A DNA stretch of 58,303 nt from Candidatus Hermodarchaeota archaeon (lineage in GTDB: Archaea; Asgardarchaeota; Hermodarchaeia; Hermodarchaeales; Hermodarchaeaceae), in assembly GCA_016839365.1 (NCBI GenBank), contig JAEOUH010000074.1, positions 1-58,303 on the forward strand, in the 5' to 3' direction. Position numbers and translations under genes: made by a program. Under the pieces are notes generated by a model that did not search any database, was not told where the DNA came from, and saw only the letters and a list, made by a program, of their open reading frames with translations. Of this stretch, positions 9,209 through 57,041 are shown piece by piece; the stretch's first letter is position 1, and every line of letters starts with the position of its first letter.

Positions 9209-9634
9209 CTATCCCAACAGATTCAATTTCATCCAGATTAGCCATTGGCAACCAAAGAACGATATGAGGATAGTAACTAATCCAACTGCTAGCATCATTT
9301 GTGCATACCGTGGTCGGTAAATATTACGGGTGCTTTGGTACATTAGGTAGAAGCCTACGAATCCAAGGAAAAAGAGTGCGCCCCCGACGATTCCTTCTAT
9401 CAGCACCTGTCGATTTAGCCCAGGATACAAAGGAAGTATTCTGTCGCCAATCTCGATGAAAGGAGGTGTTTCATAGGAGAGAACAAACATTCCTCCACTT
9501 ACAACAAAATAGTAGACTACTAACACGATTGCGAATAGTATCCACTTTGAGGGTAGACGAATTTCACCAAACCTCGGTCTACGGAGTTTTAGTCGTGGTT
9601 TACGGACGAATTTTGGCCACCAAAGGTCTGACAT
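9209..9634 (-). CDS. Oligosaccharyltransferase subunit OSTC/DC2 (OST3/OST6 family) homologue
   Basis: Three TM helices; PRLKLRRP, YYFVVSGG, ETPP, NRQVLIEG, GFVGF and terminal MKL align along the whole length with eukaryotic OSTC as recalled. Confidence 0.8.
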   Translation of the reverse strand: MSDLWWPKFVRKPRLKLRRPRFGEIRLPSKWILFAIVLVVYYFVVSGGMFVLSYETPPFIEIGDRILPLYPGLNRQVLIEGIVGGALFFLGFVGFYLMYQSTRNIYRPRYAQMMLAVGLVTILISFFGCQWLIWMKLNLLG

Positions 9635-25466: not shown

Positions 25467-25913
25467 GTGACTGTTGGTGTAATGAAAGGCGATTTAGCAA
25501 CAGTCTTAGACTCTATTAAAAAACAGCAAGCAATCTCTGGTGCTTCACTTGTTAATCTTAACAGGTTCTGTGGCGACCGTTTTTGGAAGGCTCTTCAAGC
25601 GGTAGCTAATGATCTGGTGAAAAAATATATATTCGAACCCAGCGGTAGAGAGGCATGGGTGGTTGTAGGGAAAAGCCGGGATTATCGTGTTTTATCTGAA
25701 GTATATTGTGACTGTGAAGACTTCTATATCAATGTGATAGTAAAACGCACTGCAGATCTTTGTTATCATATTCTCGCACAAATTCTTGCCAATGCATTAA
25801 GTACGTATTCGGAAATTCGCGTCGATGATATGGTGTATGAAACATTACGTGAAGAATGGGAAAGATTACAAGAAAAGCCAGCGGGTCAAAAATCGAAGAA
25901 AGGGGATGTTTGA
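25467..25913 (+). CDS. SWIM zinc-finger protein
   Basis: WVVVGKSRDY...YCDCEDF...CYHILA (CxC...CxH). Confidence 0.85.
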   Translation: MTVGVMKGDLATVLDSIKKQQAISGASLVNLNRFCGDRFWKALQAVANDLVKKYIFEPSGREAWVVVGKSRDYRVLSEVYCDCEDFYINVIVKRTADLCYHILAQILANALSTYSEIRVDDMVYETLREEWERLQEKPAGQKSKKGDV

Positions 25914-25959
25914 GTAAACTTAAAAAGCAGTGAAAGAACTTGGCAGGACGGTTCTGCAA

Positions 25960-26067
25960 ATGGATGCCGTATATCAAATCTATTACATCGTAACCATTTC
26001 GCTCTCAATTTTAGCAAGTCTACTTATCATTGCCTACCACATCCTAAGCGGACGCGAAGAACAATAA
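25960..26067 (+). CDS. 35-aa single-TM microprotein, OST4-like
   Basis: MDAVYQIYYIVTISLSILASLLIIAYHILSGREEQ; below the ORF-track cutoff; TATA-like CTTAAAAA upstream. Confidence 0.6.
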   Translation: MDAVYQIYYIVTISLSILASLLIIAYHILSGREEQ

Positions 26068-26075
26068 TCTCATGA

Positions 26076-28889
26076 TTAAGGCTTTGCTTCAGCCCACCAT
26101 TCCCTGGTTCGGATGAACTGCTTCTCATTTTCTAAAATTAGACGATAGAATTCGCTTTCAGGACGTTCATGACTTCCTGCAAGAATCCGTTTAACAACAG
26201 TTGGTCCCACCCCCCTACCCGCCATGGCAATTAGCGCTGGTTTTCCATAGTTAAGTACAACCTCAGCATTTTCGCGACCTTTTCGAAGAGCCGTTTGCTC
26301 TTCAGTGGATAATCGTTGTCCCGCTCGGTGGCGGCGAATCGCTTTTTGTAATAATTCATCCGTTGGAAAAACCCCAGCAATAAGCCTAGAGGCACATTTC
26401 TTACAATGAGGGTGGTCATCCAAATGCTTGATGGTTCGCACACTTGACCATTGTCCACAATGTAAGCAAACCAGTCGGACTTTTCGATTCAAAAGGCGCT
26501 TCTTAGTTTGTTCGAGGATATACGATTCAGGAATTTCTGGTTCAAGAAACTCGCCAAATCGTGCTAGAATTTGTCGAGCAAAAGGGGATGGGCGAGGCTG
26601 ATGGATTTTTTGTACTTCGATTTCCTTGGCCTGTATGGCTACTAAAAGAGCTCGTGTGTTAGGGATATCCAGCTTATCTACATAGAACTCCCTTAAAGCC
26701 TCTTCAATAATTGGAGTTCCTGTGAAATATTGCATTAAACGAAGAAGTTGACTGCTTTTAAGGCTCGCAGAATGTGAAATCACCCCGAATCTACGCGCGA
26801 CATGAAGGAACCGTCGGGCAAAATACGGGGATCGCAACAAGATGATTTCCAGCAGCTCATCCATATGAGAGGCTTCAAGTTGTCGCAGTCCTTCATATAA
26901 AGCCTCGCCGATTGCATATCCGCCGCCACGTTCGAATCGAAAAAGAATACGGTATTGGTCTGCATGAAATACAATTTCCCTTCCTAATTGCGAGGTTAGA
27001 AGGGCTGCAAGCAAGCGACCAAGGGTTTGGTTGATTCGAGTTCCATAGCAGGAATGGATGACAATCAATTCATGTCCTACTTCGATGGTGATATTTTGGT
27101 TATTTGGAACGAAGCCACTTTGAACTTGTTTGGTAATGGTTTTTAGCTGAATGTTTTTCGCTGGCTCATCGATATCGATATTGTATGATAGTGAGTCAGG
27201 GTGATCTAAATTTTCTGCGACTTTATTCCATAAATCACTCACGCCTTCTACAACCATCTTAGAGACGGGGATTAGCTCTCCACTCCATCTGGGGATTCGT
27301 CCTTTCGTTTGCTGAATGGCTGTCACATATACGCGTTCTTCATCCTGTTTGACGACCTCCCACGGTCGTCCACGCAGAACAAGAATGTTGCCTGTATGCC
27401 CGTATTCTTCAGCAAAACCCGTATCAAGGCGACCAACTGGCCTATTTGTGGCCATGTTGATAACCCGATGGTGAGGGGTATCAGGAATCACGGAAAGGTT
27501 CTCGAAATAATAAGAATAGGATTTCCGCCTTGGTCTAAGGATTACATCGTCTCTCGATATTAACCCTTCAATTTGAAGATATTCAATCACTTCTCTGATT
27601 TTTTCATTTTTAAGAGAGCGGTAAGGGGGTGCACGTTTAATGATGTTAATCGCCTGTGAGTAGGTTAGTGTCTTATATTCGATTGCGAGTCCAACCAGCT
27701 GATGAGCGACTATATCCAACGCGTTATAATGAATAGGCGGTGTTTCAAGGAACCCCTCTAAGGCCTTCTCAGCGACTACGATTCCTTCACAAACATCATC
27801 AAACCTGGTGGTGATAATTACTCCTTTTGATTCTCGATCAAGTTGATGTCCTGATCGGCCTACGCGTTGAAGTAGCCGAATTACTTGACGTGGTGAGCCG
27901 TACTGGATTACTAAATCAACTAACCCAATGTCTAGCCCAAGCTCTAGGGACGAAGTACATACTAAATAGGGCACCTCACCGGTTTTGAATTTCTGTTCTG
28001 CCTCTATTCGAGCCTCTCGAGAAAGGGAACCATGGTGGACTCCAGATTCGCTATCATGGAGTCTTGCTAGTCTAAGCCCTAATGCCTCAGCAGTTTGGCG
28101 CTCATTACAAAATATCAGAGTTGATGAATGGTTGCTCACCAACTCCCATATCCTTTCAGCCGGGCTGTCAAGAGGTGACTTATCCTCCTCAGCAAGAGAC
28201 AATGGACAATATTCAAGATGAAAATTAAAGTTCTTTGAGGCGGAAGATTTTACGATTCCTACTTTCTCCTCCCCACCCATGAACTTCTGAATATCAATTG
28301 GATTCCCAACGGTAGCAGATAATCCAACCCTTTGAAATGGTGTCTTTGTTAATTCACGGAGTCGCTCTAACGCCACCATTAATTGGACTCCACGTTTACT
28401 AGCTGCTAGCTCATGGATCTCATCGATGACCACACATCTGACATTACGAAGGTGCTCACGAATCCGTTTTCCAACTAAAATCGCTTGTAGGGTTTCAGGT
28501 GTTATAATAAACATTTGAGGCGGTTTCAGTGTCTGCCGACGGCGAGCCGAAGCCGGCGTATCACCATGCCTGACTTCTACACGAATTTTAAGCTGTTGAG
28601 CAATTAGAACAAGGCGACGTAAAATATCCCGATTAAGCGCTCTAAGAGGAGTAACCCAGATAATCTGAACACGTTCTGTACTCTTTGGTTCATCGAGAAG
28701 CCGATTGATCAATGGAAGGAAGGCGGCTTCTGTTTTTCCATGTCCGGTAGGGGCAATGAGAAGAACAGACTCACCTCTAAGGATCCGTGGAATGCTACGG
28801 TTCTGAATAGGTGTAGGTGTCTGGAATCCCTGTTTTTTAATTTCCTCTGAAAGTCTGGGATTCAAGAGCCCAAATACGGTTCTCTCCAC
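26076..28889 (-). CDS. lhr: Lhr-family ATP-dependent helicase
   Basis: APTGHGKT, PLRALNRD, RHGDT, DEIH, LSAT, HHGSLS, SLELGLD, QRVGRSGH; C-terminal zinc finger. Confidence 0.93.
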   Translation of the reverse strand: MERTVFGLLNPRLSEEIKKQGFQTPTPIQNRSIPRILRGESVLLIAPTGHGKTEAAFLPLINRLLDEPKSTERVQIIWVTPLRALNRDILRRLVLIAQQLKIRVEVRHGDTPASARRRQTLKPPQMFIITPETLQAILVGKRIREHLRNVRCVVIDEIHELAASKRGVQLMVALERLRELTKTPFQRVGLSATVGNPIDIQKFMGGEEKVGIVKSSASKNFNFHLEYCPLSLAEEDKSPLDSPAERIWELVSNHSSTLIFCNERQTAEALGLRLARLHDSESGVHHGSLSREARIEAEQKFKTGEVPYLVCTSSLELGLDIGLVDLVIQYGSPRQVIRLLQRVGRSGHQLDRESKGVIITTRFDDVCEGIVVAEKALEGFLETPPIHYNALDIVAHQLVGLAIEYKTLTYSQAINIIKRAPPYRSLKNEKIREVIEYLQIEGLISRDDVILRPRRKSYSYYFENLSVIPDTPHHRVINMATNRPVGRLDTGFAEEYGHTGNILVLRGRPWEVVKQDEERVYVTAIQQTKGRIPRWSGELIPVSKMVVEGVSDLWNKVAENLDHPDSLSYNIDIDEPAKNIQLKTITKQVQSGFVPNNQNITIEVGHELIVIHSCYGTRINQTLGRLLAALLTSQLGREIVFHADQYRILFRFERGGGYAIGEALYEGLRQLEASHMDELLEIILLRSPYFARRFLHVARRFGVISHSASLKSSQLLRLMQYFTGTPIIEEALREFYVDKLDIPNTRALLVAIQAKEIEVQKIHQPRPSPFARQILARFGEFLEPEIPESYILEQTKKRLLNRKVRLVCLHCGQWSSVRTIKHLDDHPHCKKCASRLIAGVFPTDELLQKAIRRHRAGQRLSTEEQTALRKGRENAEVVLNYGKPALIAMAGRGVGPTVVKRILAGSHERPESEFYRLILENEKQFIRTREWWAEAKP

Positions 28890-30734: not shown

Positions 30735-30792
30735 GATACTTCTATTACTCTAAATACCGAAACATGGCATTCAGAATCAAAAGGTGCATGAA

Positions 30793-31074
30793 ATGGGTAG
30801 GCGACGAAGAAAAACTACACCTAGGCGCCCAATCCGCTCTATTCCATCGATTTTCAATTGCCCCCGGTGCGGGCGTAATGCAGTTCGAGTAGAACTCAAT
30901 AAAAACATAGGACAAGCAACTATTCATTGTGGCAACTGCGATGTGCAAGCCACAATAAGCATTACACCTCTAACAGAACCTGTTGATGTTTATGGCGAAT
31001 TTGTTGACATTTGCGCTTCTCAGTCAACAACAGATACAAAACCCCACAACTCGCATCTTTCTTCTGAATCGTAA
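30793..31074 (+). CDS. elf1: Transcription elongation factor Elf1-like zinc ribbon
   Basis: MGRRRRK, FNCPRC, CGNC, EPVDVYGEFVD. Confidence 0.9.
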   Translation: MGRRRRKTTPRRPIRSIPSIFNCPRCGRNAVRVELNKNIGQATIHCGNCDVQATISITPLTEPVDVYGEFVDICASQSTTDTKPHNSHLSSES

Positions 31075-31136: not shown

Positions 31137-31826
31137 ATGACCGTCTGTTGCATTATCCCTGCTTTCCAAGAATCTCGAGCCATCAAAGAAGTAGTAACCC
31201 TTTCTCAGAAATTTTGTACTTGTGTAATTGTGATCGATGATGGTAGCACAGACAACACAGGCCAGATCGCTGAACAAAATGGCGCAAAGGTCCTTCGCCA
31301 CTCTCGCAATATTGGAAAAGGAGCTGCATTACGAACAGGATTCAACTATGCAATAGATACGGACTGTGAAATAATCATCACGCTGGATGGTGACCTGCAG
31401 CACAATCCACGATCAATTCCACGGTTCATTCAAAAAATCGAAGAAGGATTTGATGTTGTTGTCGGTTCCCGTTCATCAACCCAATCTGAGGAAATGCCAT
31501 TTATGAGGAAATTAAGCAACCTTATCACAACTCAGGTTCTAAGGGTTTTCTTCAGGGTTCCAGTGACAGATTCTCAATCTGGATATCGCGCGTTCAAGAG
31601 AAGGGTTTTAGCAGTGTTACAAGTACGAGATGATGGATTTGCTGCAGAAACAGAGATTCTCATTGACGCTCAGCGCGCTGGATTCAAAATTTCTGAGATT
31701 CCGATAGCTACGAACTATGGTGCTGAAGAATCAAAAATTCGCGCTCGCAGAGATATCACTCGATGGCTTCTGACGCTTTCGAAAAACTTCCGCCCTTATC
31801 CTCGTTTAGTTCGCCAGAGTGAGTAA
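31137..31826 (+). CDS. GT2 glycosyltransferase, DPM1-like polyprenol-phosphate sugar synthase
   Basis: IIPAFQE, DDGSTDNT, NIGKG, LDGDLQH, GSR, DSQSGYR. Confidence 0.88.
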   Translation: MTVCCIIPAFQESRAIKEVVTLSQKFCTCVIVIDDGSTDNTGQIAEQNGAKVLRHSRNIGKGAALRTGFNYAIDTDCEIIITLDGDLQHNPRSIPRFIQKIEEGFDVVVGSRSSTQSEEMPFMRKLSNLITTQVLRVFFRVPVTDSQSGYRAFKRRVLAVLQVRDDGFAAETEILIDAQRAGFKISEIPIATNYGAEESKIRARRDITRWLLTLSKNFRPYPRLVRQSE

Positions 31827-32773
31827 GCAAACACTACAAAGCCCACAATTAATACAAGAGCTACAAAGAAAATCATGATTTGTGAAGGGTCTTGAACCAT
31901 TTCAAGAGACATCCATCTGAAGACATTGTACCAAAGCACGCTGTTGTCCTCAGATTGGAACCAACTTTGATTCGTCGCCAGACAAGCTGTATCAGAAAAC
32001 ATCGTAGTTGATGAGCACAAGACAACCCTGGAGTTCCCTATCCAGAAGGCGGCGAGCCATGCAGGTTGATCTTGAATTACTTCTCCATTTAAAGCAATGG
32101 CTTGAGAGGTCTCTGAGCCGGTTGACACGATAAGATCTGGGTAAGTAGTTGTAAGCGAACCACCTGCAACGATGACCGAGTTGATACCTGCAATTATCGC
32201 TTCACGGTTTTGATGGGGAATTAAATACGAACTATTAACTTCAATATTGTACGGCAGGATTCGGGCGGCTCCTGAATCGATGATGGCATCTCCCTCTGTT
32301 CCATCGTTACCAGTTACAGTGGTAAACTGAATCCGCGATTCGAACAAAGCTTGGAGAATCAAGTTAACAACAAGTGGATTTCCAATTTGTCGGTTAGTAA
32401 CTTGATAATCGCCTAACAGAAACAGTGACCCTCCCTGTCCAACATACTCGGATATAACGTCAAGTTCGGAGGCAGAATAATTGGTCATTGGGTTTGGAAT
32501 TACAAGTATGTGTGATCGCGAAAGGTTTGCGGCAGTTAATTCTCCATCATGAAGTATTCTAACCTGATATTCCGGATAATTTGCAAAGAATCCTACAGCT
32601 TCAGTGAAATTACGTTTTGCTATAGTATAGGTCGAGTCGTGGCTAAAATCGATGACAATAGATATTTGCCCTTCTTCTTGTTGTTGGGTTGTGCCTCGTG
32701 TCTGTGGGACTATGAATAGCAGAAGTATAACTAAGAGCCCTACAATGAGTTTTTGTCGGGACAGGAGAACCAT
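31796..32773 (-). CDS. Type I membrane protein with GIFT/DUF4350-like domain (Wbp1/OST48-like)
   Basis: Signal peptide, IDFSH, ILVIPNP, YVGQGGSLFLLGD, SRVVL, DN..WYNVFRW, C-terminal TM and short basic tail. Confidence 0.6.
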   Translation of the reverse strand: MVLLSRQKLIVGLLVILLLFIVPQTRGTTQQQEEGQISIVIDFSHDSTYTIAKRNFTEAVGFFANYPEYQVRILHDGELTAANLSRSHILVIPNPMTNYSASELDVISEYVGQGGSLFLLGDYQVTNRQIGNPLVVNLILQALFESRIQFTTVTGNDGTEGDAIIDSGAARILPYNIEVNSSYLIPHQNREAIIAGINSVIVAGGSLTTTYPDLIVSTGSETSQAIALNGEVIQDQPAWLAAFWIGNSRVVLCSSTTMFSDTACLATNQSWFQSEDNSVLWYNVFRWMSLEMVQDPSQIMIFFVALVLIVGFVVFAYSLWRTKRG

Positions 32774-56681: not shown

Positions 56682-57041
56682 TTATCTACTCTGCAGTTCT
56701 TGAATTCCACGAAGAATCTCAATCAGTTCTTTCGCTGTTGAAGCAAAAGCCCGTATCTCTTCCTTATGGGGTTTCTCTGGAAGTGATTGTGTCAGAATCT
56801 CAAGGCTAGCTAAGGCCTTTGATGCAAGCTGGGTTAGAATATCACCACTGACCATTCGTTGGTCTGCGATTGTTTGTGGGATTTTCTGTTCTACAATCTC
56901 TCTGTCACATTTTGCGCAATACATTGAACCATCCTTTAATCGGAGGAGAGGAGTATTGCATTGTGGGCAAGCTGTGTTTAATAGAGCCGCGCCTTGTCGT
57001 AACAACTTTCCCATTCGTTTCGTAATTTGATCGTCGGACAT
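56682..57041 (-). CDS. UPF0148 / Sjogren autoantigen p27 zinc-ribbon protein
   Basis: MGKLLRQGAALL..ACPQCNTPL...YCAKC. Confidence 0.85.
   Translation of the reverse strand: MSDDQITKRMGKLLRQGAALLNTACPQCNTPLLRLKDGSMYCAKCDREIVEQKIPQTIADQRMVSGDILTQLASKALASLEILTQSLPEKPHKEEIRAFASTAKELIEILRGIQELQSR

What the first reader, a model, noticed from the sequence alone, without database searches (positions are those of the whole stretch)
25960..26067. Unannotated 35-aa microprotein resembling eukaryotic OST4
MDAVYQIYYIVTISLSILASLLIIAYHILSGREEQ fills the gap between the SWIM gene and lhr. It matches OST4 (36-37 aa as recalled) in size, Gln at position 6, a single TM ending in hydrophobic-YH (LLIIAYH versus LLVVLYH in human) and a short polar tail. 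I know of no described archaeal OST4, and an ORF this short escapes gene callers. OSTC-like and Wbp1-like genes in the same window make it plausible. Caveat: short TM peptides can match by chance.
Basis: partly seen in the sequence, partly recalled or inferred. Interest (0 to 1): 0.75.

Follow-up and report, generated by a model that had tools for sequence, protein, structure and literature searches.

The report
Conserved Asgard membrane microprotein, OST4 look-alike
This 35-codon gene is real and encodes a conserved one-helix membrane protein of Hermod-group Asgard archaea, but its likeness to the eukaryotic glycosylation subunit OST4 is not statistically supported, and Asgard OST4 relatives were already reported in 2023.

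Summary
The ORF at 25960-26067 (+) is exactly as described and is a real gene. An open orthologue exists in 18 of 18 other genomes of the same GTDB family, Hermodarchaeia. dN/dS is 0.07-0.21. A TATA-like box and a GGT are conserved upstream in 19 of 19 loci.

Profile and synteny searches extend the family to at least seven more Asgard GTDB families and one unplaced lineage. Shared features are one TM helix, a Tyr and an acidic tail.

OST4 homology is not shown:
- Pfam Ost4 gives 11.7 bits against a cut-off of 25, and only 4 of 19 orthologues hit at E<=10.
- No PDB OST4 chain appears at E<=10; an AcrB/MexB helix scores higher.
- The His of "YH" is missing in 7 of 7 synteny-found distant relatives.

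The OSTC-like and Wbp1-like neighbours are real. They lie in a large housekeeping block that also holds Lhr, MPE, a Shu2-like gene, RPA and PolD, so context decides nothing.

Eme et al. 2023 already report Asgard Ost4 homologues. This scan found the same family before on other DNA.

The parts
25960..26067 (+). Coding sequence of the 35-aa single-pass membrane microprotein (stop included)
   Evidence: ORF. (18/18 family genomes). (alignment: invariant M1, Q6, L22, I23, H27, G31). (dN/dS 0.07-0.21 on unsaturated pairs).
25969..26040 (+). Predicted transmembrane helix, about residues 4-27, ending in Tyr26-His27. The boundaries are inferred from hydrophobicity, not measured.
   Evidence: Sequence read directly. 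The hydrophobic core is conserved in all 19 orthologues and aligns with distant relatives.
26041..26064 (+). Short polar/acidic tail (ILSGREEQ). The G-x-E-E part is the family-wide signature.
   Evidence: G31 invariant and E33 in at least 90% of 19. An acidic tail is present in f21, f6, f7, f8, f14, f15 and the L091 lineage.
25920..25927 (+). TATA-like box TTAAAAAG, 40 nt upstream of the ATG. Promoter function is inferred.
   Evidence: TT[AT]AAA lies at -35 to -41 in 19 of 19 Hermodarchaeia loci.
25950..25952 (+). GGT at -10 to -8, a possible short Shine-Dalgarno element (inferred)
   Evidence: Present at the same distance in 19 of 19 loci.
25467..25913 (+). Context: the SWIM-like 148-aa gene immediately upstream, the most constant neighbour within Hermodarchaeia. 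Its fold is like Shu2/SWS1.
   Evidence: Upstream on the same strand in 19 of 19 loci. It is also upstream in f7 (G024) and in L091. Model pLDDT 86; Shu2 (6dex_B) at Z 9.7, rmsd 3.1, 123 residues aligned.
26076..28889 (-). Context: Lhr helicase gene, convergent with the microprotein gene
   Evidence: Pfam DEAD, DEAD_assoc and WH_Lhr. Adjacent in 15/15 loci of genus g1 and 0/4 of genus g2. Adjacent in 6/8 f21 loci. A family-type micro-ORF lies within 1.5 kb of 6 of 12 Lhr orthologues in other families.

Best explanation
The ORF is a genuine protein-coding gene for a 35-residue single-pass membrane microprotein.

It belongs to an Asgard-wide family that consists of one hydrophobic helix, a conserved Tyr at its C-terminal end and a short acidic tail. 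It has its own TATA-like box and a short leader.

It most likely works as other very small membrane proteins do. The peptide is too short to emerge from the ribosome before termination, so insertion would be post-translational (inferred). Its helix would then pack against a larger membrane protein through its small-residue face (T12, G14, S16, A19/G20), with the Tyr-His and the acidic tail at the membrane surface (inferred).

The partner is not established. The oligosaccharyltransferase (STT3 with the OST3/6-like and Wbp1-like proteins) is the most specific candidate. The data here do not show common descent with eukaryotic OST4, so it should be filed as an OST4 look-alike and not as an OST4 family member.

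Shown: the gene is real, it is under purifying selection, the family has the stated breadth, and the synteny is as described. Inferred: topology, mode of insertion, helix packing and partner.
For: - Gene reality: 18/18 family genomes hold an open orthologue at 53-94% identity. dN/dS is 0.07-0.21, with synonymous sites saturated in distant pairs. The upstream TT[AT]AAA and GGT are conserved in 19/19 loci.
- Database reach: in 1.84 billion representatives only 3 proteins reach E<=0.001, all from this family. In the 5.8-billion-protein set, 49 of 1858 candidates reach E<=10; none carries a Pfam domain, and every name given is 'hypothetical protein'.
- Family breadth: f21 has hits in 8/12 genomes at 45-49 bits.
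- Synteny-guided finds: f6 (2 genomes), f7, f8, f14, f15 and the L091 lineage. These rank 1-5, 7 and 11 among 1777 six-frame ORFs with the A2 HMM.
- Profile-profile support: hhalign of A1 against A7 gives probability 96.7% and score 41.1, against a maximum of 10.4 in 40 column shuffles.
- No OST4 signal.
Against: - No experiment and no RNA evidence: no RNA run holds the stretch.
- The partner is unknown, so the mechanism is generic.
- Published work claims Asgard Ost4 homologues. They may be this very family; the supplementary tables could not be seen.
- Earlier notes of this scan say a structure model places this family on STT3 at the OST4 site (e1-5395931). I could not repeat this.
- A second Asgard micro-ORF family (A4) has a basic tail and a G-x10-YH spacing that, as I recall the eukaryotic sequences, equals that of OST4. 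It is related to this family by hhalign: score 29.4 against a shuffle maximum of 14.3. This keeps an OST4 link open.
Confidence: 0.6

Rival explanations
1. It is the true archaeal orthologue of eukaryotic OST4. Its helix would sit between STT3 and the OST3/6-like subunit and stabilise a multi-subunit Asgard oligosaccharyltransferase.
For: - Same size and single helix, with an aromatic-His at the helix end in Hermodarchaeia ([Y/F]H 19/19; Tyr 13, Phe 6) and f21 (8/8).
- Pfam Ost4 is the only Pfam hit of the window's copy (E 0.24).
- Eme et al. 2023 report Ost4 homologues in most Asgard classes.
- The genome has STT3, an OST3/6-family gene and a protein with an OST48/Wbp1-like fold.
- The Wbp1-like gene lies 3-7 kb from the micro-ORF in Hermodarchaeia and f6: same contig in 13 of the 15 g1 genomes (G000 included), 2/4 of g2 and 2/2 of f6.
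- The family is related to family A4, which has YH and a basic tail.
- Earlier scan notes report a model docking on STT3 (not repeated here).
Against: - 11.7 bits against a cut-off of 25; four other places in the same genome score 11.5-12.8 bits; 10 of 14 control genomes ring.
- 0 of 400 Asgard genomes score over the cut-off, and 0/18 of f1 score at E<=0.05.
- 4/19, 1/10 and 1/9 members hit Ost4 at E<=10.
- No OST4 chain appears in four PDB profile searches, while an AcrB/MexB helix reaches 17.3 bits.
- The protein atlas points to YldA, not Ost4.
- His is absent in 7/7 synteny-found relatives, and an acidic tail takes the place of the neutral/basic OST4 tail (the OST4 tail is recalled).
- STT3 is on another contig.
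- In 0 of 4 f21 genomes is the micro-ORF on a contig with STT3 or an OST3/6 hit.
- The linkage to OST-like genes lies inside a general macro-syntenic block.
Confidence: 0.3
2. It is a working partner of the neighbouring DNA-repair genes (Lhr helicase, MPE nuclease, Shu2/SWS1-like SWIM protein). For example, it could be a membrane anchor whose acidic tail recruits one of them.
For: - The Shu2-like gene is directly upstream in 19/19 Hermodarchaeia loci, in f7 and in L091.
- Lhr is adjacent in g1 (15/15) and f21 (6/8). A family-type micro-ORF lies within 1.5 kb of 6 of 12 Lhr orthologues of other families, in three different orientations.
- The Lhr-MPE pairing is a known repair neighbourhood (passages of PMC8301817).
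Against: - The whole region is macro-syntenic between Hermodarchaeia and f6: 15 and 16 of the 46 window proteins compared are found again, including PolD, RPA, XPD, CarS, GcvT and FolP. Adjacency may therefore be inherited order and not function.
- Genus g2 lacks Lhr and MPE at the locus and keeps the micro-ORF.
- No fused form was found (weak evidence).
- A membrane helix has no obvious role with soluble repair enzymes.
Confidence: 0.07
3. It is a remnant of, or a convergent copy of, transmembrane helix 10 of an RND efflux pump.
For: The best PDB match of the family profile is MexB/AcrB residues 923-947, at 17.3 bits and E 0.027. RND-size ORFs in Asgard genomes give the next-best genome hits after the family itself, up to 24.9 bits.
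Against: The E-value is borderline for a hydrophobic segment. After adding f21 the match falls to 12.8 bits. No flanking RND sequence is present. The match most likely shows how easily helices resemble each other.
Confidence: 0.02
4. It is a chance ORF or a non-coding conserved element.
For: It is very short, there is no RNA or protein evidence, and no named family matches.
Against: Frame-specific purifying selection. The start codon is aligned in 19/19 loci (16 ATG, 3 GTG). The frame is open with no internal stop in all 19 loci. Distant relatives keep the same architecture.
Confidence: 0.01

Closest known systems
Eukaryotic OST4 / yeast Ost4p (Pfam PF10215)
   Same: About 35 residues and one transmembrane helix. 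An aromatic-His pair sits at the C-terminal end of the helix in the Hermodarchaeia and f21 versions. There is a weak sub-threshold Pfam match (11.7 bits).
   Different: The score is far under the cut-off of 25 bits and at the level of unrelated helices. No match to solved OST4 chains. His is not family-wide. The tail is acidic. The Gly-to-His spacing is 13, not the 11 that I recall for yeast and human OST4; that spacing comes from memory, not from a call.
Asgard Ost4 homologues announced by Eme et al. 2023 (PMC10307638)
   Same: Same phylum and the same kind of claim. The paper states that homologues occur 'in most Asgard archaeal classes' (passages read). The family found here spans many Asgard families.
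   Different: The main text gives no sequences or accessions.
Small single-helix subunits of bacterial membrane complexes such as KdpF, AcrZ and the SERCA regulator DWORF (the class is recalled; KdpF and DWORF appear as weak hits)
   Same: Size, a single helix, and presumed action by packing against a large membrane protein.
   Different: There is no significant sequence relation. No partner is known here.
Second Asgard micro-ORF family (alignment A4: f16, f29, f30)
   Same: Related by profile-profile comparison over the helix end: score 29.4 against a maximum of 14.3 in 40 shuffles. It has a His after Tyr/His/Ser/Asn.
   Different: Basic tail, 38-52 residues, other gene neighbours. Not found in 5 Hermodarchaeia genomes with its profile.

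Membership tests
OST4 (Pfam PF10215) | Match to the Ost4 profile at or above the curated cut-off (25 bits) | tested here: not met
   11.7 bits, E 0.24. 4/19 orthologues and 1/10 distant relatives hit at E<=10, none near 25 bits. 0 of 400 Asgard genomes score over the cut-off.
OST4 (Pfam PF10215) | About 30-40 residues with a single transmembrane helix | tested here: met
   35 aa, with one hydrophobic stretch at about residues 4-27.
OST4 (Pfam PF10215) | Conserved Tyr-His at the cytosolic end of the helix (the motif in eukaryotes is recalled) | tested here: inconclusive
   [Y/F]H in 19/19 Hermodarchaeia and YH in 8/8 f21. His is absent in 7/7 synteny-found relatives. In family A4, YH occurs in 5/9 and a His follows His, Ser or Asn in the other 4.
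OST4 (Pfam PF10215) | Sequence relation to solved OST4 chains or to a eukaryotic OST4 profile | tested here: not met
   No OST4 chain at E<=10 with profiles A1, A2, A4 or A7. A profile-profile test against eukaryotic OST4 could not be run, because no tool returned a eukaryotic OST4 sequence.
OST4 (Pfam PF10215) | Binds STT3 (and Ost3/6) in the membrane | not testable with these tools
   No multi-chain structure prediction was on hand. Earlier scan notes claim such a model for this family, unverified.
OST4 (Pfam PF10215) | Genomic association with STT3/OST genes | tested here: inconclusive
   STT3 is on another contig. In f21 the association is 0/4. The OSTC-like gene lies about 16 kb away and the Wbp1-like gene 5.7 kb away, but inside a general macro-syntenic block.
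Asgard acidic-tail microprotein family (defined here) | One helix, then Tyr, then x-h-x-G/A-E-E tail, in the Shu2-like/Lhr neighbourhood | tested here: met

The most novel reading that the evidence does not exclude
The microprotein is a membrane-anchored component of an Asgard Lhr-MPE-Shu2/SWS1-like DNA-repair module. Its acidic cytoplasmic tail would tether or regulate one of these enzymes at the membrane. That would be a link between genome maintenance and the membrane that, as far as I know, is not described in archaea (no literature search was run on this point).
Probability: 0.07. Interest if true: 0.7.

Novelty: new member of a known kind. Interest (0 to 1): 0.3.

Why it matters
If it were a true OST4, Hermodarchaeia would carry four eukaryote-type OST parts: STT3, an OST3/6-like protein, a Wbp1-like protein and Ost4. 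That would add detail to the picture that the eukaryotic glycosylation machine was largely assembled in Asgard archaea. The general claim has been in print since 2023, so the gain would be documentation and not discovery.

The practical results here are three:
- The gene is real and deserves annotation.
- "YH plus one helix" is not enough to call OST4.
- The OST-like neighbours cannot be used as support, because the whole region is an old syntenic block.

Tried and rejected
Searches for an OST4 link that found none:
- Pfam Ost4 over the own genome in six frames gave only noise, and the first look missed the ORF itself.
- Pfam Ost4 over 400 Asgard genomes gave nothing over the cut-off. The two best hits are the C-terminal helix of a 372-aa frame with a stop inside.
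- PDB profile searches with A1, A2, A4 and A7 found no OST4 chain.
- The protein atlas gave YldA at 0.83 as the top hit, below the level that counts.
- NCBIfam gave no hit for the microprotein.

Searches for other forms or a better candidate:
- Longer, fused forms: none among 8000 candidates scored, which is weak evidence.
- I looked for a better OST4 candidate in the own genome. There is no small TM ORF within 1.5 kb of STT3. The other Ost4-ringing places are not microproteins. The A4 profile finds nothing in 5 Hermodarchaeia genomes.
- Family A4 loci have no Lhr, MPE or SWIM neighbours.

Expression: no RNA holder is listed. The one RNA run of a holder's study laid nothing. This is no evidence either way.

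Literature:
- The search for 'ost4' plus 'asgard' found 4 papers, 2 listed.
- In the 2026 bioRxiv paper the passages shown hold OST48, not Ost4.
- PMC11417166 passages name only OST1, OST3/6 and STT3 for MK-D1.
- Of Eme et al. I read passages only. Of Hajj et al. (PMC8301817) I read passages only.
- All other papers were seen as search listings only.
- I did not ask for the supplements of Eme et al., which would list the Ost4 accessions, because supplements are closed. They may bear directly on whether this family is theirs.

Recalled, from no call: the yeast and human OST4 sequences and their Gly-to-His spacing; the place of Ost4 between Stt3 and Ost3; the work of Ejaz and Shuman on Lhr-MPE; the Shu2/SWS1 literature.

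Full report
**The observation.** The window reads ATG at 25960 and TAA at 26065-26067, and the 35-residue product is exactly the one quoted.
- It lies 46 nt after the stop of a 148-aa gene (25467-25913, +) and 8 nt before the end of the convergent lhr gene (26076-28889, -).
- With a filter of 28-50 codons and a run of 18 or more hydrophobic or small residues, it is the only such ORF in the 58-kb window.

**Is it a gene?** All the evidence says yes.
- A translated search of 40 relatives found an open frame in 18 of 18 other genomes of the same GTDB family (14/14 of the own genus, 4/4 of a second genus), at 53-94% identity. It found nothing convincing in 22 genomes of 15 other families.
- Record titles of related loci name the group: Candidatus Hermodarchaeum / Hermodarchaeota, an Asgard lineage.
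- The 19 products align without internal gaps. M1, Q6, L22, I23, H27 and G31 are invariant. Position 26 is Tyr in 13 and Phe in 6.
- Pairs that are not saturated give dN/dS of 0.07-0.21. Over all pairs pN/pS is 0.30 in frame, against 1.1 and 2.5 in the other two frames. All 33 third positions vary, against 14 of 33 second positions.
- Two loci have in-frame stops just before the ATG, so the ATG (GTG in three loci of the second genus) is the start.
- A TT[AT]AAA box lies 35-41 nt upstream in 19 of 19 loci, and a GGT lies at -10 to -8 in 19 of 19. That these are a promoter and a ribosome-binding site is inferred.
- Contigs of two independent metagenome runs cover the ORF unchanged.
- The protein is not wholly overlooked. 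Identical or similar 35-aa products are on record at NCBI and JGI; where a source gives a name it is 'hypothetical protein'.

**How far does the family reach?**
- A profile of the 19 sequences found 3 proteins at E<=0.001 among 1.84 billion representatives, all of this family.
- Over 400 Asgard genomes it scored 66-82 bits in Hermodarchaeia. The next score was 24.9 bits, inside RND-pump-sized ORFs.
- Some weak hits were 34-36-codon frames in family f21. Fetched and read, these are a clear sister group (consensus like M-I-E-x-N-T-I-L-Y ... G-G-F-L-A-L-G-Y-H-L-V-S-G-E-E-E-E), present in 8 of 12 f21 genomes at 45-49 bits with the joint profile.
- Beyond that, sequence search fails, so I used synteny.
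  - Downstream of a 46%-identical SWIM gene of another lineage (L091) lies a 36-codon frame ending L-V-L-A-Y-V-I-I-G-E-E-E.
  - Around 12 full-length Lhr orthologues from 10 other families, 6 have a micro-ORF of the same build within 1.5 kb (f14, f15, f7, f6 twice, f8). The other 6 do not (f10, f2 three times, f5, f16).
  - Scored with the joint HMM against all 1777 six-frame ORFs of these loci, the positional candidates take ranks 1-5, 7 and 11 (E 0.006-3.6).
  - A profile-profile comparison of the Hermodarchaeia alignment with the others gives probability 96.7% and score 41.1, against at most 10.4 in 40 column shuffles.
- The family signature is therefore one helix, L-I-L-[A/G]-Y, two or three residues, then G/A-E-E-E. 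The residue after Tyr is His only in Hermodarchaeia and f21. In the seven synteny-found relatives it is V, I, Q, V, T, M and Q.

**Is it OST4?** By sequence statistics, no link can be shown.
- Pfam Ost4 gives E 0.24 and 11.7 bits against a curated cut-off of 25.
- In the same genome four other places score 11.5-12.8 bits (a fifth scores 9.1). None is a microprotein. The model rings at E<=10 in 10 of 14 control genomes, E. coli among them.
- Only 4 of 19 Hermodarchaeia members, 1 of 10 members of other families and 1 of 9 members of a second family reach E<=10.
- Over 400 Asgard genomes no place passes the cut-off, and none of 18 Hermodarchaeia genomes has a hit at E<=0.05.
- Four family profiles searched against all PDB chains, which include OST4 chains of the yeast and human complexes (recalled, not checked in a call), list no OST4 at E<=10. 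The best match of the Hermodarchaeia profile is transmembrane helix 10 of MexB/AcrB (17.3 bits, E 0.027), which shows what unrelated helices can reach.
- The language-model atlas names a YldA cluster at 0.83, not Ost4.
- From memory, eukaryotic OST4 has Gly eleven residues before the His and a neutral to basic tail. Here the spacing is thirteen and the tail is acidic. This comparison rests on recall, since no tool gave me a eukaryotic OST4 sequence.

**What keeps the OST4 reading alive.**
- Eme et al. 2023 state that they found Ost4 and Ost5 homologues 'in most Asgard archaeal classes' (passages). I could not see which proteins they mean.
- Following weak Ost4-model hits, I found a second micro-ORF family in f16, f29 and f30 (38-52 aa). 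It has an invariant Glu near the N-terminus. G-x10-[Y/H/S/N]-H occurs in 7 of 9 members. The tail is basic in the six f29/f30 members and mixed in the three of f16.
  - It has other neighbours.
  - It was not found in 5 Hermodarchaeia genomes.
  - It also lacks Pfam or PDB support for OST4.
  - It is related to the present family over the helix end: hhalign score 29.4, against at most 14.3 in 40 shuffles and 10.3 reversed.
- The two may therefore be one Asgard-wide superfamily in which the His is old.
- Earlier notes of this scan on the same Hermodarchaeia family say that a structure model puts the peptide on STT3 at the OST4 site. No multi-chain prediction was available to me.

**Context.**
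- The 141-aa product of 9209-9634 (-) matches the membrane part of OST3/OST6 (28.1 bits, cut-off 27, profile 169-278 of 294).
- The 325-aa product of 31796-32773 (-) has an N-terminal helix, a GIFT-fold domain and a C-terminal helix.
  - Its model (pLDDT 87.4) matches IFT52 GIFT domains (E 4e-12) and then human OST48 and yeast Wbp1 in the solved OST complexes (E 2e-9 to 1e-7, TM 0.51-0.55).
  - Pfam sees only the GIFT domain.
  - This gene stays 3-7 kb from the micro-ORF: on the same contig in 13 of the 15 genomes of the own genus (G000 included), in 2 of 4 of the second genus and in both f6 genomes.
- The immediate neighbours are repair genes.
  - The SWIM-like protein models well (pLDDT 86). 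It matches Shu2 of the yeast Shu complex at Z 9.7, rmsd 3.1 over 123 residues, with the next hit (ZSWIM8) at 4.9.
  - The 270-aa gene upstream is the archaeal SbcD-related / PdeM-like phosphoesterase.
  - Lhr follows, and Lhr with such a phosphoesterase is a known neighbourhood.
- A direct comparison settles the weight of all this. Of 46 window proteins, 15 are found again within 60 kb of the f6 contig G023:C36, and 16 within 60 kb of G033:C40. They include PolD, RPA, Elf1, XPD, the RadB-like protein, CarS, GcvT, FolP, the OSTC-like protein, the Wbp1-like protein, MPE, the Shu2-like protein and Lhr.
- The region is an old syntenic block with local shuffling. Neither the OST-like nor the repair neighbours can therefore be taken as functional partners.
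- In f21 the micro-ORF is on a different contig from STT3 and the OST3/6-like hits in 4 of 4 genomes. In the own genome STT3 is on contig C27.

**Reading.** The shown facts are a real, strongly constrained gene for a one-helix membrane peptide, an Asgard-wide family, and no demonstrable relation to OST4.
- The inferred mechanism is that of small membrane subunits in general: insertion after release from the ribosome, helix-helix packing through the small-residue face, and Tyr(-His) and the acidic tail at the membrane surface.
- I put 0.6 on 'conserved microprotein with unproven partner, an OST4 look-alike', 0.3 on 'true OST4 orthologue', 0.07 on 'partner of the Lhr/MPE/Shu2-like module', and the rest on an RND-derived helix or a chance ORF.

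**Novelty and score.**
- Asgard Ost4 homologues have been in print since 2023.
- This scan has met the same family several times on other DNA. One follow-up (e1-5552346) reached the same conclusion as I do: an acidic-tail family between a SWIM gene and Lhr, whose likeness to OST4 fades when the whole family is compared.
- The finding is a sound annotation and a useful caution, not a surprise. Interest is 0.3.

Noticed in passing
window 25467-25913 (+): The 148-aa SWIM-like protein (Pfam SWIM only 15.8 bits, under the cut-off) folds like yeast Shu2 of the Shu complex: Z 9.7, rmsd 3.1, 123 residues aligned, next hit Z 4.9. It looks like an Asgard/TACK relative of the Shu2/SWS1 recombination-mediator family. 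Relatives at 43-46% identity occur in Bathyarchaeia and other Thermoproteota records.
   Followed up: partly
window 31796-32773 (-): A 325-aa type-I membrane protein with a GIFT fold matches human OST48 and yeast Wbp1 chains (Foldseek E 2e-9 to 1e-7), after IFT52. Eme et al. 2023 describe WBP1 homologues as restricted to Heimdallarchaeia including Njordarchaeales. A Wbp1-like gene in Hermodarchaeia, and hits in 14 of 22 non-Hermodarchaeia genomes searched (13 of their 15 families), may widen that range.
   Followed up: partly
window 9209-9634 (-): A 141-aa protein matches only the four-helix membrane part of OST3/OST6 (28.1 bits, cut-off 27). It is thus an OSTC/DC2-like form without the thioredoxin domain.
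   Followed up: partly
window about 5600-41200, compared with G023:C36:19900-52900 and G033:C40:23500-75400: There is macro-synteny between Hermodarchaeia and family f6. 15-16 of the 46 window proteins compared recur in one 50-kb region with local inversions: MPE, Shu2-like, Wbp1-like, Lhr, Elf1, RPA, PolD, CBS, CarS, RadB-like, XPD, OSTC-like, FolP, GcvT.
   Followed up: partly
L117:1504-1629, L118:1474-1623, L122:1495-1608 and six more loci (alignment A4): A second conserved Asgard micro-ORF family occurs in f16, f29 and f30 (38-52 aa). It has an invariant Glu and G-x10-[Y/H/S/N]-H in 7 of 9 members. The tail is basic in the six f29/f30 members and mixed in the three of f16. It is related to the present family by hhalign (score 29.4, shuffles at most 14.3).
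   Followed up: partly
alignment A1 against PDB chains 3w9i_A, 2v50_A and others: The second-genus sequences share about 15 of 25 residues (counted by eye) with transmembrane helix 10 of MexB/AcrB (residues 923-947), the helix that I recall carries the proton-relay Lys. The microprotein has Leu at that place. This is probably chance, but it is the best PDB match (E 0.027).
   Followed up: no
window 56682-57041 (-) and 30784-31074 (+): There are small zinc-ribbon proteins of eukaryote-like families: autoantigen p27 (58 bits) and Elf1 (78 bits).
   Followed up: no
L043, L072, L073, L076 (family f21): In f21 the micro-ORF lies between a Y-family DNA polymerase-like gene (read by eye from the ORF translations, not searched) and Lhr, in both tandem and divergent arrangements. 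L043 and L073 also have a small unnamed 110-130-aa ORF upstream.
   Followed up: no
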